NCBI GenBank assembly: GCA_964551605.1 | Contig: CAZKCV010000001.1 | Span: forward strand, 136,898 to 200,897 | DNA from: an uncultured Gammaproteobacteria bacterium | GTDB lineage: Bacteria > Patescibacteriota > Microgenomatia > Daviesbacterales > UBA10151 | Direction: 5' to 3' | DNA: 64,000 bases | Shown: positions 4,029 to 64,000 of the stretch, one piece after another | How the letters are laid out: the number at the start of each line of letters is the position of its first letter | Position numbering within the stretch: position 1 is the stretch's first letter | The notes under the pieces: model-generated | Told to the model about the DNA's origin: nothing | Database searches by the model: none | What the model saw: the letters and a program-made list of their open reading frames with translations, nothing else | Program-made: the position numbers and the translations under genes

Positions 4029-4637
4029 ATGAAATCATTCATCAAGGTTTTTATCTTAATCTTTCTTTTATTTATACTGATCGTGCCTATCATATTAATA
4101 AACCAGGAGCTTAGCTTTAAGAAAACTGCCGATCTATTATTTTTTATCCACCGTGGTTTAGGCTTATATGCTTTTTCCCTGATTTTTTTGGCATTAGTAA
4201 TGGGATCAACTATAACTTTACTGGACAGGCTTTTTACACCGGGTAAAGCTTTTGTCATTCATCAGGTAATTGCATCTTCAGGTTTTACCTTAGCAATTCT
4301 TCATCCGGTATTTTTGTTTAGCACTTATCTTTTAGAAGGTAATTTAAGTTATGTGATTCCCTTTTTATCAGGTATAAATCTTTTCTATTTTTTACTGGGA
4401 ATTTTTGCTTTGTTGCTACTTATATTAACTGTAACCTCAGCACTGTTACGCTTCAGGCTCGGCCCTCAATGGCTTTTTATCCACCGCCTCAACTACTTGG
4501 TATTTTGGTTAATTTTTTTCCATGGCTTAAACTTAGGCACCGATACCCAAACATATTTTGCCCGAATAATATTTTTAGCTTATGGATTAATTGTAAGCGC
4601 TATTACCATCCGTAGGCTCTTAGTTTACCGTATCTGA
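4029..4637 (+). CDS. Ferric-reductase-like transmembrane heme-binding protein
   Basis: 202 aa, about 6 TM helices with His residues spaced inside helices (IHR, ILHP, IHR, FHG). Starts 5 nt after the FNR-like gene. Confidence 0.55.
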   Translation: MKSFIKVFILIFLLFILIVPIILINQELSFKKTADLLFFIHRGLGLYAFSLIFLALVMGSTITLLDRLFTPGKAFVIHQVIASSGFTLAILHPVFLFSTYLLEGNLSYVIPFLSGINLFYFLLGIFALLLLILTVTSALLRFRLGPQWLFIHRLNYLVFWLIFFHGLNLGTDTQTYFARIIFLAYGLIVSAITIRRLLVYRI

Positions 4638-6368
4638 ATTAAATATTTCTGCTGCTGCCCGGATAATTTCATCATCTGCTGCCAGCTCTAAATTGGCAAT
4701 ATCTTCCCTTCTTTCCGGACGGCTACCCAATGCTGTGGAAACCCTGATGCCTCTGCCTAAGACGTCGGAAAAAACCCCTTCTAAAAGATCCCTATTCTTC
4801 GGCGCCTCCAGGATTCTTTGATGAAATGAATACGGAACCTCCAGTATGACGGTGTTCTCCGTGCACTTTCTAATACTAATGGACCTAAGTAATGCTTCTA
4901 ATGAATAATTAAAAGAACGCACTGTTTCCAATACAAAAGTCCACTTCTCTTTTAACTTAAAAATATCCAAAGAATCGGATGAGACAGTTGAAAACTCTGA
5001 TTGCTCCTTATTACTATGGGAATCTTCTCCTTTCAAAACTTTCTCAACCTCTTCCTGTCTTCTTGAGCTACTAGCATCGTCATTGCGAGGAGTCCCGACT
5101 TCAGTCGTGGACGACAAAGCAATCTTGGTGGGAATTTCTTCCGGACTAGATTGCTTCCCCCGGATCAAGTCCGGGGTCGCAATGACGGAAAAGGAAGTAC
5201 AAATTTCTACCACTGCCAGCTCCAGCGGTAATGACGGAATGGAAGCGAACTTTAATTTTTCCAGAGCTTTTTGCAAAATATCCAGTGCTTTAACTAAATC
5301 CCGACCGGATAAATTCTCTGACAATATTACCATCTGCTCATACTTATCTTCAGTAAGTTGAGGTTTAACCAACTGCCCTCCTACCTTATTTTTAATCAAC
5401 ATCAAGTTTCTTAAGGTATCCATTAAGGAAAGCGTTAATTCCCGAACATCTGCTCCATGCTCCAGCTGCCCTGATACATTCAGTAAGCTTTTTGCCGAAT
5501 CTTGCCTGAAAAGGTCTTTTACTAAATCCACAAGGTCATCAAAGGGGGTGGATTGAAGATTTTCCTGTAAATATTTAATTGTAACCTTAACTTTAGCAGC
5601 ACTTACCTGATCCAATAACTTGATGCCATCCCTAAAACTCCCTTCCGCTTTCTTTACTAAAAGCTTGAAGGCTTCCGGCTCAATATCAATTTGTTCTTCC
5701 TGAATTATTTTTTCAAAGGCGGCTGAGATCTCGCCCGGAGCAGCTAACTTAAAATCCAACCTTTGTACCCTGGATAGAATCGTCTGCGGGATTTTCCCCA
5801 GTTCGGTGGTTGCCAAAATAAACAACACATGTGCAGGAGGCTCCTCCAGAGTCTTAAGCAAGGCATTAAAGGCTTCCGTGGTTAACATATGTGCCTCATC
5901 AATGATGTATACTTTTTTCTTAAGAGAACTGGGTGAAAGCTTAATTTTTTCCCTTAGCGACCTAATGTCTTCAATTCCCCGGTTGGAAGCGGCGTCAATT
6001 TCAATAAGGTCCAAATTAGATCCGTCAGTAATGGAGATACACGTTGCGCATTTGTTACATGGGTAGTCATTAGTCTTCAGTATCGCTTCGCTCTCAGCTA
6101 TCAGACTTTTTTTGTCTTTGTCTGACGACTGACGACCGGTACCAATCGAAGATTGGTGGACTGACGACTTCTTCTCACAGTTAACCATCTTAGCTAAAAT
6201 CCGGGCGGTAGAAGTTTTACCTGTTCCCCTGGGGCCGACAAAAAGATAGGCGTGGGATAATTTATTGTTTTGAAAAGATGAAAGAAGAGTTTTTTTTACA
6301 GCTTCCTGACCCATTAGTTCTTGTAAAGTTTGAGGGCGGTACTTTAGATAATAAGCTATATTTCCCAT
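4620..6368 (-). CDS. dnaX: DNA polymerase III subunit gamma/tau
   Basis: Walker A GPRGTGKT, zinc module CNKCATC, tau linker. Contains two in-frame repeat-derived insertions. Confidence 0.9.
   Translation of the reverse strand: MGNIAYYLKYRPQTLQELMGQEAVKKTLLSSFQNNKLSHAYLFVGPRGTGKTSTARILAKMVNCEKKSSVHQSSIGTGRQSSDKDKKSLIAESEAILKTNDYPCNKCATCISITDGSNLDLIEIDAASNRGIEDIRSLREKIKLSPSSLKKKVYIIDEAHMLTTEAFNALLKTLEEPPAHVLFILATTELGKIPQTILSRVQRLDFKLAAPGEISAAFEKIIQEEQIDIEPEAFKLLVKKAEGSFRDGIKLLDQVSAAKVKVTIKYLQENLQSTPFDDLVDLVKDLFRQDSAKSLLNVSGQLEHGADVRELTLSLMDTLRNLMLIKNKVGGQLVKPQLTEDKYEQMVILSENLSGRDLVKALDILQKALEKLKFASIPSLPLELAVVEICTSFSVIATPDLIRGKQSSPEEIPTKIALSSTTEVGTPRNDDASSSRRQEEVEKVLKGEDSHSNKEQSEFSTVSSDSLDIFKLKEKWTFVLETVRSFNYSLEALLRSISIRKCTENTVILEVPYSFHQRILEAPKNRDLLEGVFSDVLGRGIRVSTALGSRPERREDIANLELAADDEIIRAAAEIFNSDTVN
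5079..5186. repeat. Palindromic element, family A (gtcattgcgagg...cctcgcaatgac), in frame inside dnaX
   Basis: About 108 bp. Its 3' arm is identical to the copy at 40278-40317. Confidence 0.8.
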
Positions 6369-10720: not shown

Positions 10721-11389
10721 TCAACGGCTAACCTGCAGCAACGGTAAAACTTGTGTATATTCCGGCAATACTGTTATATCTACAGATTGTTCAAAGAGTG
10801 CATTATTATTGGCTTTATCTTTTACTCGCATTGTGACATGCTCTTTCCCTACTCCCCGTACGGCTTCTATCCTTGTAATAGAATTCTCTTCGATCAAACC
10901 CACTCCCCGAAGGCCTAATGCTGCCGTGCCAACTGGAACACTGACATCCAGGGGAGCTTTAATGGTGCAATCTATATTTGGGGGCAGAGTGCAAGCCTTC
11001 GCCTCCACTCCTGTGGTCTGCACTATGGTTTCCACAATAAGCTCAGCAGGGTAACTTTCTTCCTTATTTACCACGTAGATCCTAACTGCTGGTGTAACCT
11101 GATCACCCAAATTAACCTTAGCATCCTCAAGCGGTAACTCATCTAAAAGATTTTCAGGTCTATTCGGGAAACTACCTAAAAGGTAAAGTCGGATATCCAA
11201 ATTAGAGTTAATTGTGCTTATTTCTTGGGATGGCATGAAGCCGGGTACAACCACTGTACGATCAGATGCTGACTGCCCGACTGCTTCTACTAAAACACTA
11301 TTCACAGGTATTGAATGCGAAATAATAATTGCCGCTGCACTCATTACCATTTTTTCTGCCAAATTAAAAAACTTTCTTTCAATCATCAA
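10721..11389 (-). CDS. Hypothetical secreted/membrane-anchored protein
   Basis: N-terminal hydrophobic segment. No recognisable motifs. Confidence 0.4.
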   Translation of the reverse strand: MMIERKFFNLAEKMVMSAAAIIISHSIPVNSVLVEAVGQSASDRTVVVPGFMPSQEISTINSNLDIRLYLLGSFPNRPENLLDELPLEDAKVNLGDQVTPAVRIYVVNKEESYPAELIVETIVQTTGVEAKACTLPPNIDCTIKAPLDVSVPVGTAALGLRGVGLIEENSITRIEAVRGVGKEHVTMRVKDKANNNALFEQSVDITVLPEYTQVLPLLQVSR

Positions 11390-18950: not shown

Positions 18951-20586
18951 TCAGCTGATCTTTATCTTAGAAGCGGCTTTAATAAACCCTAAAAACAGCG
19001 GATGCGGGGAAAGCGGCCGGGATTTTAGTTCCGGATGGAACTGGGTCCCTATGAAAAACGGATGGTCTTTCAGTTCAATTATCTCCACCAACTTTCCGTC
19101 CGGTGAAGTTCCGGAAATGGTTAAACCTTTTTTCATAAATTGTTCTAAAAAGTCATTATTAAACTCAAACCTGTGCCTGTGACGTTCCGAGATTTCCGGC
19201 TTGCCATATAAACTGCGAACCAGCGACCCTTCTCTTAGCTTACAATCCCAGGCTCCTAATCTCATGGTGGCTCCGTATTCCCGCTTTAACATTTTCTTCT
19301 CCTGATCCGGCATGATGTGAATAACCGGATATTTGGTCTCCGGATCTATTTCCGTGGTGTGGGCTCCCGGAAGATCCAAAACATCCCGGGCATATTCCAC
19401 TACTGCAAGTTGCATGCCGTAACAAAGGCCAAAATAAGGAATGTTATTTTCCCTGGCATATTTAATTGCCTCAATTTTTCCTTCAATATCTCTTGACCCA
19501 AAACCTCCTGGCACAATAATCCCGTTAAATTGACGCAGGATATCAACATTATCCAGAATTTTGCCCGAATCGAGCCAGGTAATTTCCGGTTTTAACCCCA
19601 GAGTCCAGGATGCATGCTTAACTGCTTCAATTACAGAAATATATGAATCGGCTAAGGTGAAAGCTCCGGTAGAGAAGTACTTACCCACTATAGCAATCTT
19701 TACAATCTGTTTACCCTGAGCTTGTCGAAGGGCAGAATCAATTTTCCTGACAAACTCTTTCCATTCTTTCATATCCTCATTTTTCCTCTTTAACCCCAAT
19801 TTATCCAGCAACCTTTGGGCTAAATTCTGTTCATCAAATCCCAGCGGTACTTTATAAATACTGTCCACATCGGGAGCGGAAATAATGTCCGCCGGCTCCA
19901 GGCCGGTAGACATAGACAATTTTCTGATTCTCTGCTGATCCAGCGGCTTCTCAGACCGGGCCAAAAGTATATCCGGTTGGATACCCATGGCATTTAAGTC
20001 CCTAACAGACATCTGGGCCGGTTTGCTTTTCATTTCACCAATCGAGGCCGGAATAGGCAAATAAGTAATATGGGCATGGAGGACATCTGCCGGGTTTTTT
20101 AATTTCATCAGCCGGTTGGCTTCTAAAAACAGGATGTTTTGGTATTCTCCGGTAGTACCCCCGATTTCTATGACTACCACATCAGCATTACCAGCCCGGC
20201 CGGCTTCTTTAATTCTTTTGATAATTTCTTCGGTGACATAAGTCACCACATCCACGCATTCCCCGTCATATTCTAAGTTTCTTTCACGCTGGATGACTGA
20301 AAGATAGATTGATCCTTGAGTAGCAATGCTGTTTTTATTTAAGGATTCATTTAAAAACCGCTCATAATGACCTAAATCCTGATCAGTTTCCGTGCCATCA
20401 TCTAACACAAACACTTCACCATGCTCAATCGGATTCATGGTCCCGGCATCGACATTCAAATAGGGATCCATCTTTATAGGAGTTACTTTATAACCTGCTG
20501 ATTTTAAAAGGAGCGCAATCGAAGAGGTAGCAATACCTTTTCCAATACCACTAATAACACCACCTGTGACAAATATATACTTCATA
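18951..20586 (-). CDS. pyrG: CTP synthase
   Basis: Start trimmed to MKYIFVTGGVISGIGKG. The 23 track codons upstream read through a palindromic repeat. The C-terminal half is a GATase (class I glutamine amidotransferase) domain, inferred from position. Confidence 0.85.
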
Positions 20587-20597
20587 GCTGATTCTAG

Positions 20598-20658
20598 AGA
20601 TTGCTTCACTACGTTCGCAATGACGTCATTGCGAGGAGCAAAGCGACGAAGCAATCTG
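20598..20658. repeat. Family A element, rearranged half-copies, intergenic between pyrG and topA
   Basis: agattgcttc...cgcaatgac followed by gtcattgcgagg...gacgaagcaatct. Confidence 0.7.
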
Positions 20659-20701
20659 TTTACGGGGGATTTTTGAGGCCCTCAATATAATACCAAGAAG
20701 G

Positions 20702-22786
20702 CTACCGGATTGCAAGTATTGTTTCAGGAGCAACAACTTCTTTCTGATCTCCCTCAGGAACGACTGGCTTGGGTTTGGTCCAGCTGGCAAATTTACAGAC
20801 GGGCCAGTTTTTGCAGCCGTAGAAAGTTTTGCCCCTTTTAGTTCTTCTCACTACAATATCCCCGCCATCCTGGGGACATTTGGCGTTGACCTTTTCTTCC
20901 AAAGATTCCGTATGTTTACATTCCGGAAAACCGGAACAAGCCAGGAACTTCCCGAATCTTCCTACCCTAACAATTAATTCCTTACCGCAGTCGGGGCACT
21001 TTTTACCGGCAAATTGAACTTCCATTTTCACTTTCTGGGCTTCTTTCTTAGTCTGTTCTACCTTTTTCTCAAACGGTTGGTAAAAAGCCGCAATTGTGGG
21101 ACGCCACTGCCTTTCACCCCTGGCTATTTCATCTAATTCATCTTCTAAACTGGCCGTAAAAGTGTAATCTATAATATCAGAAAAATTTGCCATCAAAAAA
21201 TCAATTACCGTCATACCTAAAATAGTAGGTATAAATTTTCTATTTTCTTTTTCTACATAAAACCGCTCCTGAATGGTAGAAATTATCGGGGCATATGTTG
21301 AAGGCCGGCCTATACCCAGCTCTTCCAGCTTTTTAATTAAAGAGGCTTCATTATATCTAGGCGGAGGTTCGGTAAAATGCTGAGACGGTAAAAGCTGCAC
21401 CAAAGCAAGCAACTGACCCTCAGATAAAGTAGGCAAAACTTGCTTTTTTTCCTCCCCTTCTTCCTCCGCCTCTTTTCCGAAGAGCTTAAGCCAACCATCA
21501 AATCGAATCACGCTGCCGGTTGCCCGAAGTAAATATCCGTCATTGCGAGGAGTCTGCGACGAAGCAATCTCTTGATTTTCCGAGGAAGATTGCTTCGCTT
21601 CGCTCGCAATGACGTCGATGGTTGTTTGGTCCATAACCGCCTCATTCATCTGGCACGCCACAAACCTTTTCCAAATCAGATCATATAACCGTACATGGTC
21701 TTTATTGAAATTTCCCTTCCCCCTTAACCCTTCACCCTTTTCCCTTATGTCTGTTACCCGAATCGCCTCATGCGCTTCCTGGGCATTTTTTGATTTAGAC
21801 TTAAAAACCCTGGCAACAGAAGGCAAATAAGTTTTACCGATAAAATTCTCTATGTATGTTCTGACAGCCCCGATTGCCTGAGTTGATAAATTAACGGAAT
21901 CTGTTCTCATATAAGTGATCAGTCCGTGTTCATACAAGGCCTGGGCAAGCATCATGGTCTTTTTGGCTGACATTCCCAATTTATTAGCCCCGGCTTGCTG
22001 CAGGGTTGAAGTTGTAAAAGGCGGGTATGGGTAGCGGCGGACTTCTTTTTGTGTAATTTTGGAGATGTTATACTGAGCCTTTTCCAGATTTTTGACATGC
22101 CCATCCGCTTCTTCCTTATTTTTGATTTCCAGCTTTTTGCCATCTTTTTCTATTAAATTGGCAATGAAACTGTTGCCTGTTGCCTGTTGCCTGTTGCCTT
22201 CCAGCTCTACCTCAATATTCCAATATTCCTCCGGCTTAAAGGCCTTTATCTCCCTTTCCCGTTCCACTATCAGCCTTAAAGCTACTGATTGAACCCGGCC
22301 GGCAGATAAGCCCTTTTTAACCTTTTCCCATAAAAGCGGTGAGAGTTTATAACCCACTAATCTATCTAAAACCCGTCTGGCCTGCTGGGCATCAACCAGT
22401 TTAAGATCAATAGGCCGGGGGTTTTCAAATGCCTCTTTAATGGCATCCTCAGTAATTTCATGAAAAACCACCCGCTTGGTATCTTTAGAATCATTTAATA
22501 CACCGGCTAAATGCCAGGCAATTGCCTCTCCTTCCCGATCAGGGTCTGTGGCTAGCCATAAAGACTCCGCTCTCTCAGCTACCTTCTTTAATTCATTAAC
22601 CCTTTTTTTCTTATCACGGGGAATAATGTATTTAGGATCAAAATTATGCTCAACATCTATTCCAAGCTCGGATTTCGGCAAATCCCGGATATGGCCCATT
22701 GAAGCCTCAATTTGATATTTATCACCCAGAAACTTTTGAAGTGTTTTCGCCTTAGTCGGTGATTCAACAATTACTAAATTCTGCAT
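20702..22786 (-). CDS. topA: DNA topoisomerase I with C-terminal zinc ribbons
   Basis: Toprim N-terminus and multiple C4 zinc ribbons. Carries in-frame repeat insertions. Confidence 0.9.
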   Translation of the reverse strand: MQNLVIVESPTKAKTLQKFLGDKYQIEASMGHIRDLPKSELGIDVEHNFDPKYIIPRDKKKRVNELKKVAERAESLWLATDPDREGEAIAWHLAGVLNDSKDTKRVVFHEITEDAIKEAFENPRPIDLKLVDAQQARRVLDRLVGYKLSPLLWEKVKKGLSAGRVQSVALRLIVEREREIKAFKPEEYWNIEVELEGNRQQATGNSFIANLIEKDGKKLEIKNKEEADGHVKNLEKAQYNISKITQKEVRRYPYPPFTTSTLQQAGANKLGMSAKKTMMLAQALYEHGLITYMRTDSVNLSTQAIGAVRTYIENFIGKTYLPSVARVFKSKSKNAQEAHEAIRVTDIREKGEGLRGKGNFNKDHVRLYDLIWKRFVACQMNEAVMDQTTIDVIASEAKQSSSENQEIASSQTPRNDGYLLRATGSVIRFDGWLKLFGKEAEEEGEEKKQVLPTLSEGQLLALVQLLPSQHFTEPPPRYNEASLIKKLEELGIGRPSTYAPIISTIQERFYVEKENRKFIPTILGMTVIDFLMANFSDIIDYTFTASLEDELDEIARGERQWRPTIAAFYQPFEKKVEQTKKEAQKVKMEVQFAGKKCPDCGKELIVRVGRFGKFLACSGFPECKHTESLEEKVNAKCPQDGGDIVVRRTKRGKTFYGCKNWPVCKFASWTKPKPVVPEGDQKEVVAPETILAIR
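21539..21613. repeat. Family A element in frame inside topA
   Basis: About 75 bp. Encodes VIASEAKQSSSENQEIASSQTPRND. Confidence 0.8.
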
Positions 22787-33264: not shown

Positions 33265-33283
33265 ATTTTAACATATAAAAATC

Positions 33284-33374
33284 GTCATTGCGAGGAACGA
33301 GTCATCGAGTGACGTGGCAATCTTGATGTGGGATTCATCCGACCTAGATTGCTTCGCTAATCGCTCGCAATGAC
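33284..33374. repeat. Family A element, intergenic between pyrD and mreB
   Basis: gtcattgcgaggaacg...agattgcttcgctaatcgctcgcaatgac. Confidence 0.8.
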
Positions 33375-33393
33375 GTAAGGCAATAACTTTGGT

Positions 33394-36947: not shown

Positions 36948-39098
36948 ATGGTTAACATTATTCTGGATAGAATCATTCCCTACTCTTTTTATGCCCTCTT
37001 TTTCTTAACTCCCCTGGTTTGGTCATCTGCCAATCATGAGCTTTTTGAATATAACAAAATGATTTTAACTTATGGCCTCACTGTCATTATTGTAGGAGCC
37101 TGGCTACTTAAAGCGATTAACGAAAAACGATTAACGATCAAACGAACTCCCCTAGATATTCCACTTTTATTATTTTTGGGAGCCAATATCCTGTCTACTA
37201 TATTTTCAATTGATCCCCACACTTCTATTTGGGGCTATTATTCCCGTTCAAACGGCGGGCTTTTATCCATCATCTCCTACCTATTATTATATTGGGCGTT
37301 TGTTTCCAATATGGACTTTGAGAGAGTTAAACTTGCCTTAAAATTTGGCCTGACTTCCGGTTTTATTATTTCCCTGTGGGCAATTTTTGAACACTTTGGA
37401 GTTTCTCCGTCCTGTGTAATTTTAAGGGGGGAGTTTAATGCTTCCTGCTGGATACAGGATGTCCAGGCCCGGGTTTTTGCCACTTTAGGCCAACCCAACT
37501 GGCTGGCAGCCTATTTGGCTATGTTAATTTTCCCCACTTTGTATTTTGCTTTAACTGCTTCCCATAAACTATACGCTATACGCTATACGCTTATCGCTAT
37601 TATCTTCTACCTGGCTTTTACCTTTACTTATTCCCGGGGACCCACACTGGGACTGATTGGAGGAATGGCGGTATTTATTATTGGCTACCTCTTCTGGCAT
37701 CCTGAGGGCAAAGCCCGAAGGATCTCTGCTCTACGAAGTACTTATTTTGTAACATTTATTTCAGACCCTCACATTCGTGAGAGATTCTTCACTACGTTCA
37801 GAATGACAAAGCTAGGAGGTATTTTAATCTCTTTCTTAATAATCAACCTCCTCTTTGGCTCAGCCTTAACTTCATTTAGATTAATTTCCAAATTTGCTGC
37901 CCCGGCCAGGCCCGGGATAGCTCTCCCAACCTCAAGCGGCACCCAACTGGAGAACGGCGGTACCGAATCCGGTCAAATCCGATTTATTGTCTGGAAAGGT
38001 GCCCTGGAAATATTTAAACATTACCCGCTTTTCGGCTCAGGAGTGGAAACCTTTGCCTATGCCTATTACCAGTACCGGCCGCCGGAACATAATCTAACCT
38101 CTGAATGGGATTTTCTTTACAACAAAGCGCATAATGAATATCTGAACTACCTGGCTACCACCGGAATTGTCGGCTTTGGGACTTATTTGCTGGTGATTGG
38201 AACATTCATTTATTGGTGTATTAAAAAAATTTCTAAATCCGAATTACTAATTTCTAATCAAATCCCAAATCCTAAACCCCAATTAGGTCAATTAGAAATT
38301 AGATCAATTAGAAATTTAGTTCTTGCACTCCTTGCTGCCTATATCTCCTACTTAATCTATAACTTCTTTCTTTTCTCCGTTGTCATTATTGCCGTCTTTT
38401 TCTATCTACTTCCGGCCCTGGCCTTTGTTGCTGCAAATTCCACTATACCCTATACCCTATACCCTATACCCTACCTCTACCGGAGACCACTATATACCCG
38501 GGTAGCTAAAGGTCTGGTGATTTTTTCCATCATCTATCTTCTATATTCTATATTCCAGCTTTGGTATGCCGATACTTTATTTGCCAAAGGTGAAAAAGCT
38601 ACTGATGCCGGTAGACTGAGTAAAGCCTATGAGTTTTTAACCAGAGCCTCGGATATTAACAGGGCTGAACCGCTTTATCAATCAGAACTGGGTTTTGTAC
38701 AGGCACAGGCAGCTGCGGCTTTAAAAGATACTGATGCTTCCGCATCCGCCGATTTTAAGGACGATGCGGTTTCCCTAACTGAAAATGTCTTAGAAAAAAG
38801 TCCCCAAAATATTTCATTCTACCGGACAGCAGTCAGGACCTATTTTGAGCTTTCCCTGACAGACAATGCCTTCATCGATAAAACCCTGCAAACACTGGAT
38901 CAAAGCATAAAACTGGCTCCCACTGATCCTAAACTTTATTATAATAAAGCCTTAATTCTTGAAAGCATCGGCAAAAAAGAAGAACAAATTAGAGCTTTAG
39001 AAAAAGCCCTACAGTTAAAACCAAATTATCTGGAAGCACTGGCTCTTTTAAAAGAGGCTACCGGATCAGCCCGCCTGCCGGACGGGCAGGCTAAATAA
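36948..39098 (+). CDS. O-antigen ligase (Wzy_C)-domain polytopic membrane protein with C-terminal TPR repeats (PglL/WaaL-like)
   Basis: SRGPTLG and LFGSGVETF...HNEYLNYLATTGIVGF motifs, at least 10 TM helices, TPR-like tail. Confidence 0.7.
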   Translation: MVNIILDRIIPYSFYALFFLTPLVWSSANHELFEYNKMILTYGLTVIIVGAWLLKAINEKRLTIKRTPLDIPLLLFLGANILSTIFSIDPHTSIWGYYSRSNGGLLSIISYLLLYWAFVSNMDFERVKLALKFGLTSGFIISLWAIFEHFGVSPSCVILRGEFNASCWIQDVQARVFATLGQPNWLAAYLAMLIFPTLYFALTASHKLYAIRYTLIAIIFYLAFTFTYSRGPTLGLIGGMAVFIIGYLFWHPEGKARRISALRSTYFVTFISDPHIRERFFTTFRMTKLGGILISFLIINLLFGSALTSFRLISKFAAPARPGIALPTSSGTQLENGGTESGQIRFIVWKGALEIFKHYPLFGSGVETFAYAYYQYRPPEHNLTSEWDFLYNKAHNEYLNYLATTGIVGFGTYLLVIGTFIYWCIKKISKSELLISNQIPNPKPQLGQLEIRSIRNLVLALLAAYISYLIYNFFLFSVVIIAVFFYLLPALAFVAANSTIPYTLYPIPYLYRRPLYTRVAKGLVIFSIIYLLYSIFQLWYADTLFAKGEKATDAGRLSKAYEFLTRASDINRAEPLYQSELGFVQAQAAAALKDTDASASADFKDDAVSLTENVLEKSPQNISFYRTAVRTYFELSLTDNAFIDKTLQTLDQSIKLAPTDPKLYYNKALILESIGKKEEQIRALEKALQLKPNYLEALALLKEATGSARLPDGQAK

Positions 39099-40222: not shown

Positions 40223-40223
40223 C

Positions 40224-40317
40224 GTCATTGCGAGGAACGAAGTGACGAAGCAATCTTGGTAGTGATTAAACATTAACTAGATTGCTTCCCCCGGATCAAG
40301 TCCGGGGTCGCAATGAC
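40224..40317. repeat. Family A element, intergenic between def and fmt
   Basis: gtcattgcgaggaacgaagtgacgaagcaatct...agattgcttcccccggatcaagtccggggtcgcaatgac. Confidence 0.8.
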
Positions 40318-40328
40318 GAAATAAAAAA

Positions 40329-47946: not shown

Positions 47947-47980
47947 TGTCATTCTGAGCGTAACGAAGAATCTCAAGATT
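47947..47980. repeat. Family B element (partial) upstream of the HTH/endonuclease-like gene
   Basis: gtcattctgagcgtaacgaagaatctcaagatt. Confidence 0.5.
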
Positions 47981-52909: not shown

Positions 52910-52916
52910 AATTATT

Positions 52917-52984
52917 GTCATTCTGAGCGAAGCGAAGAATATAACTTAATGATTATATCCTTCGGCTAATCGCCTCAGGATGAC
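52917..52984. repeat. Family B palindromic element (gtcattctgagcgaagcgaagaat ... cgcctcaggatgac) at the GH1/EamA junction
   Basis: Imperfect terminal inverted repeat gtcattctgagcg / cgcctcaggatgac. A related copy lies at 47947-47980. Confidence 0.6.
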
Positions 52985-53957
52985 AGGGATTATGAATCAT
53001 TTACCATTTACCCTTACTGCCTACCTTTTGAATGCCCTGGCGGTTTTAGCCAATAAATTTTTGCTTAATAAAGCCATCCCCGACCCTTTAGTGTATGTTT
53101 TTTATATCAGCGTTGTCTCTTTATTTGCAGTTTTAGTCCTACCCTTTACCAATACCCCGGCCCTTTCCACTTTTTATCTGGCATCAGTTTCTACCGTTCT
53201 TTGGACGCTGGGTGCCTATTTCATGTTTAAAGCCCTAAAATTAGGCAATGTTTCGCGGGTGATTCCGATTATCGGTACCCTGATTCCCCTGTTTTTGCTT
53301 ATCTTTGCGGTGGGAACCGGAACTATTACTACTACTCAAACCTGGGCAGTCTGGTTTTTGGTAGCCGGTATTGTATTTTTAACTATTACAGATTGGCAGG
53401 CCCGCCTGCCAGCGCCTGAGCGCCCGCCTGCCACGACTGTGGCATGTCGGGCAGGCAGCGATGGCGGGCAGGGGAAATTCAGTATCAGGGAAATTGTATT
53501 TGAACTGCTTTCAGCCGGCCTTTTTGCCGTCTCCTATGTTTTCTTAAGACAGGCTTATTTAAGCTTGGACTTTTTCTCAGTCCTGATCTGGTCCAGATTG
53601 ATCCTGCTGCCTCTTTGTTTAATTATGCTGATTATCCCGGCTTTAAGAAGAAAAATTATCACCTCAAATGGCCTAAAAATTAACTTTTTTTCTAAACCCG
53701 GCTTGGTGTTCCTGGGCGGACAATTAAGCGGCGCCTCCTCAGAGTTTCTACTGCTCTTTTCCATTTCCTTGGCTAACCCAGCCTTAGTCAATTCCCTACA
53801 AGGCACCCAATACGTCTTTTTACTGATCTTTGCTTTAGTCTTAGGCCGGGAATACCCAAAAGTTTTTGAAGAAAAATATACCTTCAAAGAGTTAATAGTA
53901 AAAGTTATCGGGATTGGACTTCTGAGCTTTGGGATCTACCTGCTGGCCGCTACTTGA
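52980..53957 (+). CDS. EamA/DMT-family transporter with a GC-rich in-frame palindromic insertion
   Basis: 10 TM helices in two EamA-like halves. The central loop ARLPAPERPPATTVACRAGSDGGQG is encoded by a GC-rich palindrome. Confidence 0.6.
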   Translation: MTGIMNHLPFTLTAYLLNALAVLANKFLLNKAIPDPLVYVFYISVVSLFAVLVLPFTNTPALSTFYLASVSTVLWTLGAYFMFKALKLGNVSRVIPIIGTLIPLFLLIFAVGTGTITTTQTWAVWFLVAGIVFLTITDWQARLPAPERPPATTVACRAGSDGGQGKFSIREIVFELLSAGLFAVSYVFLRQAYLSLDFFSVLIWSRLILLPLCLIMLIIPALRRKIITSNGLKINFFSKPGLVFLGGQLSGASSEFLLLFSISLANPALVNSLQGTQYVFLLIFALVLGREYPKVFEEKYTFKELIVKVIGIGLLSFGIYLLAAT

Positions 53958-61689: not shown

Positions 61690-61860
61690 TAAAGTAACTT
61701 TCTTCTGTCATCCCCCGATTAAATCGGGGGATCCATACAAATAATTGGTATAGATTCCTGCTTTCGCAGGAATGACAACGGAATTTTTCATTATTGCAAT
61801 TATACTACTACCTTTGTTATACTTGATACGTTCATGTAAACTGAACGTATCTTGACAAAT

Positions 61861-61887: not shown

Positions 61888-62080
61888 GCCTAATATATTT
61901 GGATTTCTAAATGAAGTTAAAGAAGAATTAGCTAAGGTAACCTGGCCCAGCCGGGAAGAAACTGTCCGTTATACGGTTCTGGTTATCCTGGTCGCGGCTG
62001 TGGTTGGTTTGTTCTTAGGTGGCCTGGATTATATCCTAACCAGCATTACCACCTTTATAATAGGAAACTATGGACGATAA
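61886..62080 (+). CDS. secE: Preprotein translocase subunit SecE
   Basis: 64 aa. TWPSREETVRYTVLVILVAAVVGLFLGGLDYIL single TM. Start trimmed to MPNIFG. Confidence 0.8.
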   Translation: MPNIFGFLNEVKEELAKVTWPSREETVRYTVLVILVAAVVGLFLGGLDYILTSITTFIIGNYGR

Positions 62081-62987
62081 AAATCAAAAAACAGAAGAAA
62101 AAGTTTCAGAAGTAACAGACGCTTCTGAGGAACCTGTTGTAGAAGAAACCACTGAATCAAATCAGCCGGAAGAGGCTTCCTCTCCTGTCATTGCGAGTGA
62201 AACCGAAGGTGAAACGAAGCAATCTTCCACGGATGAAGAAGATCGCCACGTCGTCCCGCAAAGCGGGACTCCTCGCGATGACGAAGAAATAAACAAAGAC
62301 GAAGCCGTAGTAGAAGAATCTACAAAAGAACCTGAAGCGCAAGTAAACGAACCAGGTGAGACTCCAGCTGCCGAAGAACCAACTACATCCGATGAGCCTA
62401 CTCCAGCCACCCACGAGTCGACTGAACCACAAGAATCCGCCTCCCCTACCAAAAATGATAATCCTAATGCCAAATGGTATGTTGTTCATACCTATTCCGG
62501 CCATGAAAACAAGGTGGCCCATACCTTAAAACAGCGGGTAGAATCCGAGCATCTGGAAGAGAAAATCCTGGAAATCCTGGTTCCCATGCAGGATAAAATT
62601 GAAATCAAAGGCGGCAAAAAGGTTAATGTCAAGGAAAAAATCTTCCCCGGCTATATTTTGGTCAAGATGGTCCTGGATGATATCTCCTGGCTGGTTGTCA
62701 GGACTACCCAGGGAGTAACTGCTTTTGTCGGTATAGGCAATAAACCCACTCCAATTTCTGAGGCTGAAGTACAAACTATTGTTAAATTTACCCAAACAGA
62801 AGCTCCAATGTACAAACAAGTGTTTGCCGTATCTGATGCGGTTAAAATCGTAGACGGCCCGTTTGCTGATTTTATTGGTAAAATCGACAGTGTTGATGAA
62901 GAAAAAGGTAAAGTCCGGGTCCTGGTTTCCATCTTTGGTAGGGAAACCCCGGTTGAGTTGGACTTTTTGCAAGTTCAGAAATTATAA
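62070..62987 (+). CDS. nusG: Transcription antiterminator NusG with ~125-aa acidic N-terminal extension
   Basis: NGN domain KWYVVHTYSGHENKV and KOW domain KIVDGPFADFIGKI. The extension contains a palindromic repeat in frame. Confidence 0.85.
   Translation: MDDKNQKTEEKVSEVTDASEEPVVEETTESNQPEEASSPVIASETEGETKQSSTDEEDRHVVPQSGTPRDDEEINKDEAVVEESTKEPEAQVNEPGETPAAEEPTTSDEPTPATHESTEPQESASPTKNDNPNAKWYVVHTYSGHENKVAHTLKQRVESEHLEEKILEILVPMQDKIEIKGGKKVNVKEKIFPGYILVKMVLDDISWLVVRTTQGVTAFVGIGNKPTPISEAEVQTIVKFTQTEAPMYKQVFAVSDAVKIVDGPFADFIGKIDSVDEEKGKVRVLVSIFGRETPVELDFLQVQKL
62187..62282. repeat. Family A element in frame in the nusG N-terminal extension
   Basis: About 96 bp. Encodes VIASETEGETKQSS...SGTPRDDEE. 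Confidence 0.75.
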
Positions 62988-63452: not shown

Positions 63453-63508
63453 GTTTTAGGTGATAGGTTATAGATTAAAACTATAAGCTACAACCAAAGG
63501 GAGCACAA

Positions 63509-64000
63509 ATGGGACGACCAAGATTAAAAATTATTGATGATGCACAGGAAGAAACTGAAGAGAAGCTTTCCAAAAAGAAAGCTAAAAAGCCGGAAATAAA
63601 GACTGAAGCATCAATTCCAGACGTCATTGCGAGCGACGCCGAAGGCGGAACGAAGCAATCCAACTCGGAAGAAACTCCCACCCAGATTGCTTCGTCGCAG
63701 ACTCCTCGCAATGACAAAGAGAAGAAAGCCCGAAAACCCGGCAAAGCCAAGCCCCGATCCAAAAAGTATCAAGAAGTTGTCAAAGACCTGGACAAAACCA
63801 AGGCTTATCCCCTTTCCGAAGCAGTTGAGCTGGTTAAGAAACTTTCCTACTCTAAATTTGATGGTAGTCTGGAAGCCCATGTCAACACTGCACAAACCGG
63901 AATCCGTGGTTTAGTCTCCTTGCCCTATGCTGCCGGTAGGAAACTGCGCATCTTGGCTTTTGGCAAAGGAGCGGAAACTTCAGGGGCTGACACGGTTGGT
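63509..64000 (+). CDS. rplA: 50S ribosomal protein L1 (partial at 3' end, with ~80-aa Lys-rich N-terminal extension)
   Basis: Core SKKYQEVVKDLDKTKAYPLSEAVELVKK...LPYAAGRKLRILAFGKG. Runs off the window. Not in the ORF track because no stop codon is reached. Confidence 0.8.
   Translation, partial: MGRPRLKIIDDAQEETEEKLSKKKAKKPEIKTEASIPDVIASDAEGGTKQSNSEETPTQIASSQTPRNDKEKKARKPGKAKPRSKKYQEVVKDLDKTKAYPLSEAVELVKKLSYSKFDGSLEAHVNTAQTGIRGLVSLPYAAGRKLRILAFGKGAETSGADTVG
63623..63715. repeat. Family A element in frame in the rplA N-terminal extension
   Basis: Encodes VIASDAEGGTKQSNSEETPTQIASSQTPRND. Confidence 0.75.

What the first reader, a model, noticed from the sequence alone, without database searches (positions are those of the whole stretch)
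20598..21613. Repeat copies at the pyrG/topA junction and inside topA, and a spurious pyrG N-terminal extension
The intergenic composite copy at 20598-20658 is read through by the ORF caller. That gives pyrG a false 23-aa N-terminus (MLRRFAPRNDVIANVV...). The motif PRND is the translated cctcgcaatgac arm. The genuine start is the Met of MKYIFVTGG at about 20586. A second copy 900 bp away (21539-21613) is truly internal to topA. It lies between the conserved core and the zinc-ribbon region and is followed by a Glu-rich stretch (EAEEEGEEKK).
Basis: seen in the sequence. Interest (0 to 1): 0.5.

Follow-up and report, generated by a model that had tools for sequence, protein, structure and literature searches.

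The report
Hairpin repeats inside essential CPR genes
Two copies of a widespread bacterial hairpin repeat (the "CGTC-tagged REP / Ssn-related motif" kind) sit in the untranslated leader of pyrG, where they fake a longer protein start, and in-frame inside the DNA topoisomerase I gene of a Candidatus Daviesbacteria genome; this kind of element is already known, but it is unusually often translated in this organism.

Summary
Both repeat copies are real. The motif gives 16 arm matches in the window against 0.7 expected. The window comes from a Candidatus Daviesbacteria (CPR) genome.

The unit is YGTC-ATTGC-GAGG-[variable mini-hairpin]-CGAA-GCAAT-CT. It has the tag, AT-started stem and tail of the published CGTC-tagged REPs (Neisseria dRS3/NTS, Rickettsia RPE-4/6) and Ssn-related motifs. 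In other phyla the same unit flanks a ~95-aa GIY-YIG (Ssn-like) gene on both sides.

The pyrG copy (20598-20657) is a tags-inward dimer in the 5' leader. The 23-aa extension is spurious: the true start is the ATG at 20585, and the TTG at 20654 lies inside a repeat arm.

The topA copy (21538-21614) is a tags-outward dimer translated in frame. It lies inside core domain II, at a beta-hairpin tip (E. coli D421|F422), not between the core and the Zn ribbons. The Glu-rich stretch is a native loop.

The same TopA site holds inserts of several families in 22 of 40 relatives. dnaX, nusG and rplA in this window also carry in-frame copies.

Verdict: a new member of a known kind, of moderate interest.

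The parts
20598..20657 (.). Tags-inward (TT in Di Nocera's terms) dimer of two CGTC-tagged hairpin units, in the pyrG 5' leader. The - unit runs 20625->20598 and the + unit 20624-20657.
   Evidence: as RNA it folds to a long hairpin, -28 kcal/mol, z = -2.5
20586..20654 (-). Spurious 23-codon N-terminal extension of pyrG. The TTG start at 20654 lies inside the repeat arm AGATTGCTTCG.
18951..20585 (-). pyrG (CTP synthase) CDS from the genuine ATG, 544 aa.
   Evidence: Pfam CTP_synth_N profile position 1 aligns to residue 2. MKYIF(V/I)(T/S)GG is the start found in six relatives. Three of them (L001, L002, L125) have in-frame stops 6-7 codons upstream.
20675..20715 (-). Conserved pyrG promoter-like box TTGCAA-17-TG-TATTAT, followed by the GGGCCTC initially transcribed region (20681-20675).
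   Evidence: GTATTATATTGAGGGCCTC is identical in the window and in six relatives (L001, L002, L003, L004, L125, L127).
20702..22786 (-). topA (type IA DNA topoisomerase I), 694 aa.
21538..21614 (.). Tags-outward (HH) dimer inside topA: + unit 21538-21570, 16-nt loop 21571-21586, - unit 21614->21587. It is translated as (D)VIASEAKQSSSENQEIASSQTPRND(G), aa 391-417.
   Evidence: RNA fold -37.3 kcal/mol, z = -5.6. Its 32-nt unit is 100% identical to the unit at 63684-63715.
5078..5187 (.). Same-family HH dimer, in frame in dnaX (4620-6368, - strand), aa 394-431, in the linker between domain III and the C-terminal domain.
62186..62283 (.). Same-family HH dimer, in frame in the N-terminal extension of nusG (62070-62987, +), aa 39-72.
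   Evidence: The only in-frame starts before the NGN domain are the ATG at aa 1 and a GTG at aa 149.
63622..63716 (.). Same-family HH dimer, in frame in the N-terminal extension of rplA (L1; the frame opens at 63479 and the ATG is at codon 11).
33283..33375 (.). Same-family HH dimer, intergenic, between a DHODH-like gene and mreB. Five of its six frames contain stops.
40223..40318 (.). Same-family HH dimer, intergenic, between def and fmt. All six frames contain stops.
61706..61777 (.). Near-canonical NTS/SRM-type pair upstream of nusG: TGTCATCCCCCGATTAAATCGGGGGATCC on the + strand and TGTCATTCCTGCGAAAGCAGGAATCT on the - strand.
37694..37808 (.). Hybrid dimer of sister families (GGCATCCTGAGG...GAAGGATC and TGTCATTCTGAA...GAAGAATC), in frame in a Wzy-like membrane protein.

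Best explanation
Both copies are dimers of a small, tagged hairpin repeat. It is of the kind published as CGTC-tagged REPs (Di Nocera 2013) and Ssn-related motifs, SRM/NTS (Chenal 2025). Each unit is YGTC (tag), ATTGC, GAG(G), a variable mini-hairpin, (C)GAA, GCAAT, then C(T). The outer and inner arms are conserved across phyla, and the interior varies while keeping its pairing.

The tags-outward dimer has the same arms in the same orientation as an autonomous-looking element found in other genomes: unit, then a ~95-aa single-domain GIY-YIG (Ssn-like) gene, then an inverted unit. In the window's dimers only a 16-40-nt loop stands where that gene would be. I therefore read the dimer as a gene-less, MITE-like derivative. 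Its spread or maintenance probably depends in trans on an Ssn-type nuclease that recognises the unit as single-stranded DNA. This step is inferred, not shown.

At pyrG, a tags-inward dimer landed in the short 5' leader, between the conserved promoter/GGGCCTC box and the ATG. One reading frame of these units never contains a stop, and the arm AGATTGCTTCG supplies a TTG. An ORF caller therefore runs 23 codons upstream of the real start. This is shown.

In topA, a tags-outward dimer sits at the tip of a beta-hairpin in core domain II. It is kept in the one register that encodes a hydrophilic, slightly acidic, stop-free peptide. It is therefore translated as a 21-residue surface-loop expansion, which the enzyme tolerates. 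Translation is inferred from frame conservation, not measured.

Selection acts as a filter. Only insertions at tolerant loops or linkers, and in the benign register, survive. That explains why topA, dnaX, nusG and rplA all read VIA[ST]..KQS..IAS..PRND, and why the same TopA site is occupied by different families in relatives.
For: Reality and statistics: (16 against 0.7; 18 units against 0.78).

Architecture: the tag base is Y in 145 of 167 units from >=120 loci in many phyla. There are 135 distinct interiors between identical arms, and 37% have a >=4-bp perfect stem against 10% in shuffles.

Literature match: CGTC tag, stem starting AT, short tail, dimers, and intragenic in-frame dimers encoding 20-30 aa, many of them in replication/repair genes; N-terminal copies often extragenic; RPE-4/6 and dRS3 are CGTC REPs (PMC3733652). 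NTS = CGTCATTCCCGCGMAVGCGGGAATCYRG. The 3 nt before the palindrome and the C after it are critical for SsnA, and the architecture is NTS-ssnA-NTS (PMC11893778).

Unit-gene-unit found here with this very unit in L024 (Planctomycetota), L052 (Bacillota) and L104, and with sister families in L059 and in Daviesbacteria L127. These ORFs are PF01541 single-domain proteins of 92-109 aa. Four of the five have the Y-11-Y-47-E spacing of SsnA Y6/Y17/E64; L104 differs by one residue (11 and 48). 1007 homologs were found, including Daviesbacteria proteins.

pyrG: Pfam profile start at residue 2. A conserved leader with only ~46 nt between the box and the ATG in L001, L003 and L127, in-frame stops upstream of MKYIF in L001, L002 and L125, and the TTG inside the arm.

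topA: 18 of 40 close homologs have a 2-3-residue turn at this site, including near neighbours P0002 and P0004. DNA of empty against filled sites. E. coli alignment. AF2 secondary structure is strand, low-confidence coil, strand (weak, because the model is poor).

Frame filter: one frame always ends in SQ*. All 4 genic copies use the most hydrophilic open register (GRAVY -0.5 to -1.4, net charge -1 to -6). Intergenic copies have stops in 5-6 of 6 frames.

rplA: the conserved MGRPKxKxIDDS motif upstream of the repeat and KPGKAKPRSKKYQE downstream show read-through translation.
Against: The family-1 units do not match the published degenerate SRM search sequence. They also do not fit the 8-9-bp stem and 4-5-nt loop of CGTC families 1-4.

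No GIY-YIG gene lies in the 64-kb window, and I could not read the rest of this genome.

Assignment of the flanked GIY-YIG ORFs to cd10448/Ssn was not testable; NCBIfam gave no family. Only about 4 of about 120 cross-phylum loci carry the gene next to the unit.

No target-site duplication is seen, so the insertion mechanism is unknown. Di Nocera states that CGTC REPs lack a dedicated transposase, and Chenal shows cleavage, not transposition.

There is no expression or proteomic evidence for translation of the TopA insert. The AF2 model is low quality (mean pLDDT 55).
Confidence: 0.78

Rival explanations
1. The 23-aa pyrG extension is genuine: translation starts at the TTG at 20654, and the repeat encodes a real N-terminal tail, as reported for some RPE-1-decorated Rickettsia proteins.
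For: The frame is open from the promoter box to the ATG. The predicted transcription start (~20681) lies upstream of the TTG, so the TTG would be on the mRNA. N-terminal REP peptides are translated in L1, and probably in NusG, of this same genome.
Against: The canonical MKYIF(V/I)(T/S)GG start is found in all six relatives where pyrG could be located. Three of them have in-frame stops 6-7 codons upstream, and there is no conserved peptide upstream. The Pfam model begins at residue 2 of MKYIF. The TTG is simply part of the repeat arm. 20 of the 23 codons are repeat sequence, buried in a -28 kcal/mol hairpin.
Confidence: 0.06
2. The TopA segment is a native, lineage-specific variable loop that evolved in place (for example by slippage or low-complexity expansion). 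It is not an inserted mobile repeat, and its resemblance to the dispersed repeat is secondary.
For: The site is length-variable in 22 of 40 homologs. Some inserts are not tagged repeats: L126 carries an (AGTCGTC)x4 microsatellite, and L127 carries a different palindrome.
Against: The window's insert is a complete two-unit dimer. One 32-nt unit is 100% identical to a copy 42 kb away. The arms are identical to copies in unrelated phyla. Near relatives have a tight turn at the site. L125 carries a clean dimer of another tagged family at the same site.
Confidence: 0.05
3. The intragenic hairpins are functional RNA or DNA regulatory elements selected for their structure (mRNA stability, translational pausing, Ssn-controlled recombination or transformation barriers around key genes). 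They are not neutral passengers, and the peptide is a by-product.
For: The RNA folds are very stable (z = -4.5 to -7.9). NTS/Ssn modulates transformation in Neisseria. The copies cluster in information-processing genes (topA, dnaX, nusG, rplA), echoing Di Nocera's enrichment in replication/repair genes. The pyrG leader carries repeat-derived sequence in 3 of 7 genomes.
Against: Presence is patchy among close relatives at every site examined, which argues against a conserved function. No terminator-like feature was found. There is no functional data.
Confidence: 0.12
4. The copies are assembly artefacts: repeat-induced chimeric joins or collapsed repeats in a metagenome-assembled genome.
For: The source is a MAG-type CPR genome, and short dispersed repeats can mislead assemblers.
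Against: Units of 28-47 nt are shorter than reads or k-mer joins would need in order to create in-frame, gene-preserving junctions. Both flanks of every genic copy continue the same conserved protein. An independent ENA assembly (L002) has the same family at the same topA codon. Independent L1 sequences from other assemblies also carry it.
Confidence: 0.02

Closest known systems
CGTC-tagged REPs (Di Nocera, De Gregorio & Rocco 2013, BMC Genomics 14:522; includes Neisseria dRS3 and Rickettsia RPE-4/RPE-6)
   Same: Unpaired YGTC tag at one end, stem beginning A-T/T-A, short 3' tail, and size of about 28-47 nt. Mostly found as dimers with the tags outside (HH). A rare tags-inside (TT) dimer also occurs. 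Located between co-directional or convergent genes. In-frame intragenic dimers encode 20-30 aa, notably in DNA replication/repair genes. Copies at ORF 5' ends create doubtful N-terminal extensions.
   Different: The stem is bipartite: a 5-bp ATTGC/GCAAT stem, a GAG/GAA internal loop, and a variable inner hairpin of 8-30 nt. The four described families have a continuous 8-9-bp stem and a 4-5-nt loop. The host is a CPR bacterium, a group not sampled in 2013. The intragenic fraction here (4 of 7 dimers) is far higher.
NTS / Ssn-related motifs with the GIY-YIG ssDNA nuclease Ssn (Chenal et al. 2025, Nat Commun 16:2388)
   Same: CGTCAT...AATC framework, with the GTC 5' of the palindrome and the C 3' of it conserved. 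The unit-gene-unit arrangement occurs around a ~95-aa single-domain GIY-YIG ORF with SsnA-like catalytic spacing. The distribution is cross-phylum. The window also holds a near-canonical NTS-type unit (TGTCATTCCTGCGAAAGCAGGAATCT).
   Different: The family-1 units fail the published degenerate SRM pattern. No ssn gene is seen in the window. Nuclease specificity for this unit is untested. In N. meningitidis only 2% of NTS are intragenic, whereas here most dimers are.
Rickettsia palindromic elements (RPE; Ogata et al. 2000, cited from memory and via PMC3733652)
   Same: Palindromic repeats inserted in frame into essential protein-coding genes, translated as extra surface segments, and compatible with function.
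   Different: RPE-1 is longer (about 100-150 bp) and restricted to Rickettsia. The present unit is shared, with identical arms, by many phyla and is linked to a GIY-YIG gene.
REP/BIME elements with RAYT (IS200/IS605-like Y1 transposases)
   Same: Short tagged hairpins, dimers forming larger hairpins, and a proposed single-strand-specific enzyme that recognises hairpin plus tag.
   Different: The tag is GTAG, not CGTC. The partner enzyme is a HUH/Y1 transposase, not GIY-YIG. No RAYT was seen.
Classical bacterial MITEs (e.g. Neisseria Correia/NEMIS)
   Same: Gene-less short elements with inverted terminal arms, dispersed, and able to fuse with ORFs.
   Different: No target-site duplications here. 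No DDE transposase parent.

Membership tests
CGTC-tagged REP superfamily (Di Nocera 2013) | Unpaired terminal CGTC (or TGTC/CCTC) tag at one end of the unit | tested here: met
   All 18 units in the window start CGTC or TGTC. Y precedes GTC in 145 of 167 cross-phylum units.
CGTC-tagged REP superfamily (Di Nocera 2013) | Stem begins with complementary A-T residues in the first and second positions | tested here: met
   ATTGC...GCAAT in every family-1 unit, and ATTCT...AGAAT in the sister family.
CGTC-tagged REP superfamily (Di Nocera 2013) | Continuous stem of 8-9 bp with a 4-5-nt loop (families CGTC-1 to -4) | tested here: not met
   A 5-bp outer stem, then GAG/GAA mismatches, then a variable inner hairpin; the interior is 8-30 nt. 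It is therefore not one of the four described families.
CGTC-tagged REP superfamily (Di Nocera 2013) | Short unpaired 3' tail (consensus CCA) | tested here: inconclusive
   The tail is C-T-(C/T/G) after GCAAT. The C is invariant, and the rest differs from CCA.
CGTC-tagged REP superfamily (Di Nocera 2013) | Predominantly dimers with tags outside (HH); tags-inside (TT) rare | tested here: met
   6 of 7 family-1 loci are tags-outward. Only the pyrG-leader copy is tags-inward (definition).
Ssn-related motif (SRM/NTS) - Ssn system (Chenal 2025) | Matches the degenerate SRM search sequence HGTCWYN(0-2)YYVSBRHN(0-5)WNVSBRGN(0-2)RNCYNB | tested here: not met
   None of the family-1 or family-2 units match. 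The only hit in the window is 61706-61736.
Ssn-related motif (SRM/NTS) - Ssn system (Chenal 2025) | Conserved 3 nt upstream of the palindrome and a C immediately after it (the positions critical for SsnA cleavage and binding) | tested here: met
   GTC before ATTGC, and C after GCAAT, in all units (criterion).
Ssn-related motif (SRM/NTS) - Ssn system (Chenal 2025) | Units flank a ~94-aa single-domain GIY-YIG gene on both sides (motif-ssn-motif) | tested here: met
   L024, L052 and L104 carry this exact unit. L059 and Daviesbacteria L127 carry sister families. PF01541 only, 92-109 aa, with SsnA-like Y-11-Y-47-E spacing in four of five (L104: 11 and 48). Met in other genomes, not in this window.
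Ssn-related motif (SRM/NTS) - Ssn system (Chenal 2025) | The partner protein belongs to CDD cd10448 (GIY-YIG_unchar_3) | not testable with these tools
   No CDD search is available, and NCBIfam gives no family. No SsnA sequence is held.
Ssn-related motif (SRM/NTS) - Ssn system (Chenal 2025) | An ssn gene is present in the genome that carries the repeats | tested here: inconclusive
   None in the 64-kb window. The rest of the 223-kb contig and of the genome could not be fetched. Other Daviesbacteria do encode it.
Ssn-related motif (SRM/NTS) - Ssn system (Chenal 2025) | Strand-specific ssDNA binding and cleavage of the unit by the cognate Ssn | not testable with these tools
   Needs a biochemical assay.
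Rickettsia-type in-frame palindromic elements (RPE-like behaviour) | The repeat is inserted in frame in conserved protein genes, at loop or linker positions, and is absent from orthologs | tested here: met
   topA, rplA, dnaX and nusG.
Classical MITE | Target-site duplications flanking the element | tested here: not met
   No direct repeats flank any of the 7 loci. L125 shows a possible GCAAC duplication, in one case only.
REP/BIME-RAYT | GTAG tag and an associated Y1 (RAYT) transposase | tested here: not met
   The tag is CGTC/TGTC. The only recurrent neighbour protein is GIY-YIG. RAYT was not specifically searched for.

The most novel reading that the evidence does not exclude
In Daviesbacteria, and perhaps CPR generally, Ssn-type hairpin repeats are not randomly scattered and then filtered. 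Instead they are directed to a few recurrent landing pads inside information-processing genes: the TopA domain-II hairpin tip (22 of 40 relatives occupied, by at least four families), the L1 and NusG N-terminal linkers, the DnaX linker and the pyrG leader. The family-1 junction in topA coincides with native GATGT/TGACGG sequence that resembles the element's own GACGTC/TGACG ends, which hints at end-homology-guided insertion. The translated peptides may be co-opted as flexible acidic linkers. This would make CPR a natural system for studying how a GIY-YIG/hairpin element remodels essential proteins.
Probability: 0.12. Interest if true: 0.7.

Novelty: new member of a known kind. Interest (0 to 1): 0.4.

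Why it matters
Practically, these units have a stop-free frame and built-in TTG/ATT codons. Gene callers will therefore create false N-terminal extensions (as in pyrG here and in L004) and spurious small ORFs throughout CPR genomes. Annotators should mask them.

Biologically, the window shows that a repeat kind known from Neisseria, Rickettsia and alpha-proteobacteria is also abundant in an ultra-small CPR genome: 18 units in 64 kb. With little intergenic space, most dimers end up translated inside essential proteins (TopA, DnaX, NusG, L1).

The repeated occupation of one TopA beta-hairpin by different families gives a ready-made comparative data set. It bears on which protein sites tolerate 20-40-residue insertions, and on whether Ssn-type elements have target preferences.

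Tried and rejected
- RBS/SD support for either pyrG start: uninformative. SD-like motifs occur upstream of 10 of 50 ORFs against 13% background, and neither start has one.
- Rfam at gathering threshold over the window: only 3 tRNAs. No known RNA family covers the repeats or the pyrG leader.
- Intrinsic terminator at the topA/pyrG junction: none found, so the leader dimer is not a terminator.
- Literature search by the exact arm sequences: only unrelated primers.
- Search for CPR plus palindromic element plus in-frame: nothing relevant.
- Strict SRM regex: fails on the main family.
- NCBIfam on the GIY-YIG ORFs: no family.
- Supplements of the Ssn paper, to obtain an SsnA sequence: not held.
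- Exact-sequence look-up of this window's TopA, to obtain the rest of the contig: not on record.
- AlphaFold2 of TopA from a 40-sequence alignment of close relatives: poor model (mean pLDDT 55, pTM 0.30). I used it only for local secondary structure and did not submit it to a fold search.
- Target-site duplications: none.
- Ungapped comparison of downstream flanks, window against L002: gave a meaningless 44% because of an indel, so I discarded it.
- Intein, intron or translational-bypass readings of the insert: rejected. The segment is 75 nt, has no matching features, and is always kept in an open hydrophilic frame.
- My first labelling of the dimers (HH/TT) was inverted. I corrected it after reading the definition.
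Full report
**What is there.** The region lies on the minus strand. pyrG is 18951-20585, topA is 20702-22786, and a 116-nt spacer separates them. Both repeat copies exist at the stated coordinates. The outer arm CGTCATTGCGAGG (<=2 mismatches) occurs 16 times in the 64-kb window against 0.70 expected, and the inner arm GCGACGAAGCAATCT occurs 10 times against 0.93. They form seven loci of one family: 5078-5187, 20598-20657, 21538-21614, 33283-33375, 40223-40318, 62186-62283 and 63622-63716. Sister families (GTCATTCTGAG..GAAGAATC, GTCATCCTGAGG..GAAGGATC) lie at 37694-37808, 47947-47974 and 52915-52986. A generic scan for the architecture YGTC + AT + 3 nt ... reverse complement + C finds 18 units against 0.78 in shuffles. 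TopA homolog names place the window in Candidatus Daviesbacteria (Microgenomates, CPR/Patescibacteria).

**Anatomy of the unit.** Each unit reads YGTC-ATTGC-GAG(G)-[8-30 nt]-(C)GAA-GCAAT-C(T). These loci come from Chloroflexota, Bacteroidota, Planctomycetota, Omnitrophota, Desulfobacterota, Alpha- and Gammaproteobacteria (including a Rickettsiaceae symbiont), Atribacterota, Patescibacteria and others. Between identical arms there are 135 distinct interiors. Of these, 37% contain a perfect stem of at least 4 bp, against 10% after shuffling. So the interior is a variable hairpin kept by compensatory change. The base before GTC is a pyrimidine in 145 of 167 units. Six of the seven loci in the window are dimers with the tags outside and a 16-40-nt loop between the units. 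As RNA they fold into long hairpins (-37 to -58 kcal/mol, z = -4.5 to -7.9). The pyrG copy is the exception.

**What kind of element this is.** Two papers describe it.
- Di Nocera et al. 2013 (PMC3733652) defined CGTC-tagged REPs. They have a terminal CGTC/TGTC tag, a stem starting with A-T pairs and a short tail, and they occur mostly as dimers with the tags outside (HH in their terms, since the tag is the 'tail'); tags-inside (TT) dimers are rare. Neisseria dRS3 and Rickettsia RPE-4/RPE-6 belong to this group. In-frame intragenic dimers encode 20-30 aa, many of them in replication and repair genes. [quoted passage not shown] No transposase was known.
- Chenal et al. 2025 (PMC11893778) showed that the Neisseria version (NTS, CGTCATTCCCGCGMAVGCGGGAATCYRG) and related 'Ssn-related motifs' flank a 94-aa single-domain GIY-YIG gene, ssnA. 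SsnA binds the hairpin as single-stranded DNA and cuts just upstream. The 3 nt before the palindrome and the C after it are the critical positions.

The window's units keep exactly those positions (GTC|ATTGC ... GCAAT|C). The window also contains a near-canonical NTS-type pair at 61706-61777.

**Independent test of the enzyme link.** I collected all ORFs in the cross-phylum loci and looked for recurrent neighbours without any prior assumption. A ~95-aa GIY-YIG ORF sits between two inverted copies of this very unit, tags outward, in L024 (Planctomycetota), L052 (Bacillota) and L104. The same arrangement occurs with sister families in L059 (Omnitrophota). A Daviesbacteria genome (L127) has a 92-aa GIY-YIG gene flanked by TGTCATCCTGA..GAAGGAT on one side and ..CTCAGGGTGACA on the other. 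All five ORFs are PF01541 only. Four of the five show the Y-11-Y-47-E spacing of the SsnA catalytic residues Y6/Y17/E64, and L104 differs by one residue. The family has 1007 homologs at E <= 1e-10, including several Daviesbacteria proteins and 66-70%-identical proteins from Gammaproteobacteria and Aquificota. The tags-outward dimers in the window therefore look like gene-less derivatives of a unit-ssn-unit element. What remains inferred: that an Ssn acts on this unit, and how copies are inserted. No target-site duplications are present, no GIY-YIG gene lies in the window, and the family-1 units fail the published degenerate SRM pattern.

**pyrG start.** The longest ORF starts at the TTG at 20654, which is part of the arm AGATTGCTTCG. 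Twenty of the 23 extra codons are repeat sequence. The Pfam CTP_synth_N model starts at residue 2 of MKYIFVTGG. The six Daviesbacteria relatives in which pyrG could be located all start with MKYIF(V/I)(T/S)GG. Three of them have in-frame stops 6-7 codons upstream. All share a leader GTATTATATTGAGGGCCTCAAAAT, and in the three relatives without leader insertions (L001, L003, L127) it is followed by ~25 nt, CCCC, ~8 nt and the ATG. The promoter scan calls TTGCAA-17-TG-TATTAT at 20715-20687. In the window, the tags-inward dimer is inserted into this short leader. The stop-free VIA/PRND frame of the units removes the upstream stop and opens the frame. The extension is an artefact (confidence about 0.9).

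**topA insert.** The dimer encodes (D)VIASEAKQSSSENQEIASSQTPRND(G), aa 391-417. It lies inside the Topoisom_bac domain (aa 127-564), and the Zn ribbons start at aa 595. Against E. coli TopA (4rul) it is a clean 21-residue gap between D421 and F422, in TVGAGD|FRLKARG. From memory of the E. coli structure, this belongs to domain II (about 405-472). A poor AF2 model agrees locally: strand 381-396, coil with pLDDT <50, strand 418-431. The acidic EAEEEGEEKK is conserved in all 40 aligned Daviesbacteria TopA sequences and aligns to E. coli PALRKGDEDR, so it is native and unrelated to the repeat.

At the insertion site, 18 of 40 homologs have a 2-3-residue turn (for example DVTAGN|YLLRATG; DNA GAT GTG ACG GCC GGT AAT TAT). 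The other 22 carry inserts:
- The same family in P0006, P0051, P0063 and P0105.
- A TGTCATTCTGG..CCAGAATC dimer in P0009, verified at the DNA level in L125. P0027 and P0033 carry the same VILG-type peptide.
- Other palindromes or a heptamer microsatellite in further homologs.

Insert states are scattered on a tree built without the insert columns. The window's TopA groups with one empty (P0004) and one filled (P0006) sequence. This indicates repeated gain and/or precise loss.

**Beyond the finding.** The same family is read in frame in three other genes:
- dnaX, aa 394-431, in the linker between domain III and the C-terminal domain.
- nusG, aa 39-72 of a 134-aa N-terminal extension. The only in-frame starts before the NGN domain are the ATG at codon 1 and a GTG at codon 149.
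- rplA (L1). Here the conserved motif MGRPKxKxIDDS lies upstream of the repeat and KPGKAKPRSKKYQE lies downstream in about 28 homologs. Only some homologs carry the repeat peptide, so the repeat must be translated.

One of the three frames always ends in SQ* (TCG CAA TGA). Of the remaining frames, all four genic copies use the register that gives the most hydrophilic, slightly acidic peptide, VIA[ST]..KQS..IAS..PRND (GRAVY -0.5 to -1.4). The two intergenic dimers have stops in 5 or 6 of 6 frames. This is the signature of a selective filter on translated insertions.

**Verdict.** The element belongs to a known kind (CGTC-tagged REP / Ssn-related motif, behaving like RPEs). Its stem is bipartite, which is not one of the described families, and it occurs in a lineage where it had not been described in the papers I could search. 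Novelty: new member of a known kind. Interest: 0.4. The main reasons are the high rate of translated copies in essential CPR genes and the multi-family hot spot in TopA.

Noticed in passing
window 20675-20715 (- strand); L001, L002, L003, L004, L125, L127 upstream of pyrG: A strongly conserved pyrG leader: TTGCAA-17-TG-TATTAT, then GA-GGGCCTC, and in most genomes a C-run close to the ATG. The GGGCCTC start closely resembles the B. subtilis pyrG initially transcribed region 5'-GGGCTC, which mediates CTP-sensitive reiterative transcription (PMC7039003). This suggests that a similar control may exist in a CPR lineage. The repeat dimer in the window separates the C-run from the ATG.
   Followed up: partly
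window 63479-64000 (rplA) and alignment A2: Daviesbacteria L1 has a conserved N-terminal extension: MGRPKxKxIDDS, a variable 20-70-aa linker, then KPGKAKPRSKKYQE. The linker holds the repeat peptide in the window, P0121, P0128, P0132 and P0139, and remnants (PRDD) in P0124 and P0150.
   Followed up: yes
window 62070-62987 (nusG): NusG has a 134-aa, highly acidic N-terminal extension before the NGN domain, with an in-frame repeat dimer at aa 39-72. There is no alternative in-frame start before the NGN domain.
   Followed up: partly
window 36948-39098, repeat at 37694-37808: A Wzy/O-antigen-ligase-like membrane protein carries a hybrid dimer of two sister repeat families. It is read in the other, more hydrophobic frame (...RISALRSTYFVTFISDPHIRERFFTTFRMT), in contrast to the hydrophilic register used in the soluble proteins.
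   Followed up: no
window 61706-61777: A pair of near-canonical NTS/dRS3-type hairpins (TGTCATCCCCCGATTAAATCGGGGGATCC and TGTCATTCCTGCGAAAGCAGGAATCT) lies upstream of nusG. The second differs from the Neisseria NTS core by a compensatory C-G to T-A change.
   Followed up: partly
TopA alignment A1, after residue 199 of the window protein: A second insertion hot spot in Daviesbacteria TopA. 13 of 40 homologs carry inserts of 8-41 aa there. They include a family-1 peptide (P0011, SSSVIASGAKQS...IATSPSA) and the VILNEVKDL-type family (P0004, P0006).
   Followed up: no
L024 about 4950-5560: The unit-GIY-YIG-unit element in a Planctomycetota genome is bracketed by a direct duplication of about 70 nt. 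The duplicated sequence is the 5' end of a gene (MNVSYNWLKELVEFDLTPEELAQKL, pheT-like). This may record how the element inserted.
   Followed up: no
L125 TopA insert (locus about 11170-11260): The TGTCATTCTGG dimer in this TopA is flanked by GCAAC on both sides (GGCAACAA[TGTCATT...AATGACA]TGCAAC). This is the only possible target-site duplication seen.
   Followed up: no
L126 TopA insert: The insert at the same hot spot contains an (AGTCGTC)x4 heptanucleotide microsatellite read as SRQSSVVSRQ. Not all inserts at this site are tagged hairpin repeats.
   Followed up: no
window 20591-20620 (- strand): A second promoter-like match, TTGCGA-18-TAGAAT. Its -35 is supplied by the repeat arm, and its -10 ends 5 nt before the pyrG ATG. 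If it is active, it would give a near-leaderless pyrG mRNA.
   Followed up: no
L001 8006-8359 and L125 12138-12491: In two relatives a 117-aa bAvd/23S-rRNA-IVP-like four-helix-bundle gene sits between topA and pyrG. L003 has an M23 peptidase gene there. The topA-pyrG junction is a variable spot in this lineage.
   Followed up: no
whole window: Shine-Dalgarno-like motifs are not enriched upstream of long ORFs (10 of 50 against 13% background). Start-codon choice in this genome cannot rely on RBS scoring.
   Followed up: partly
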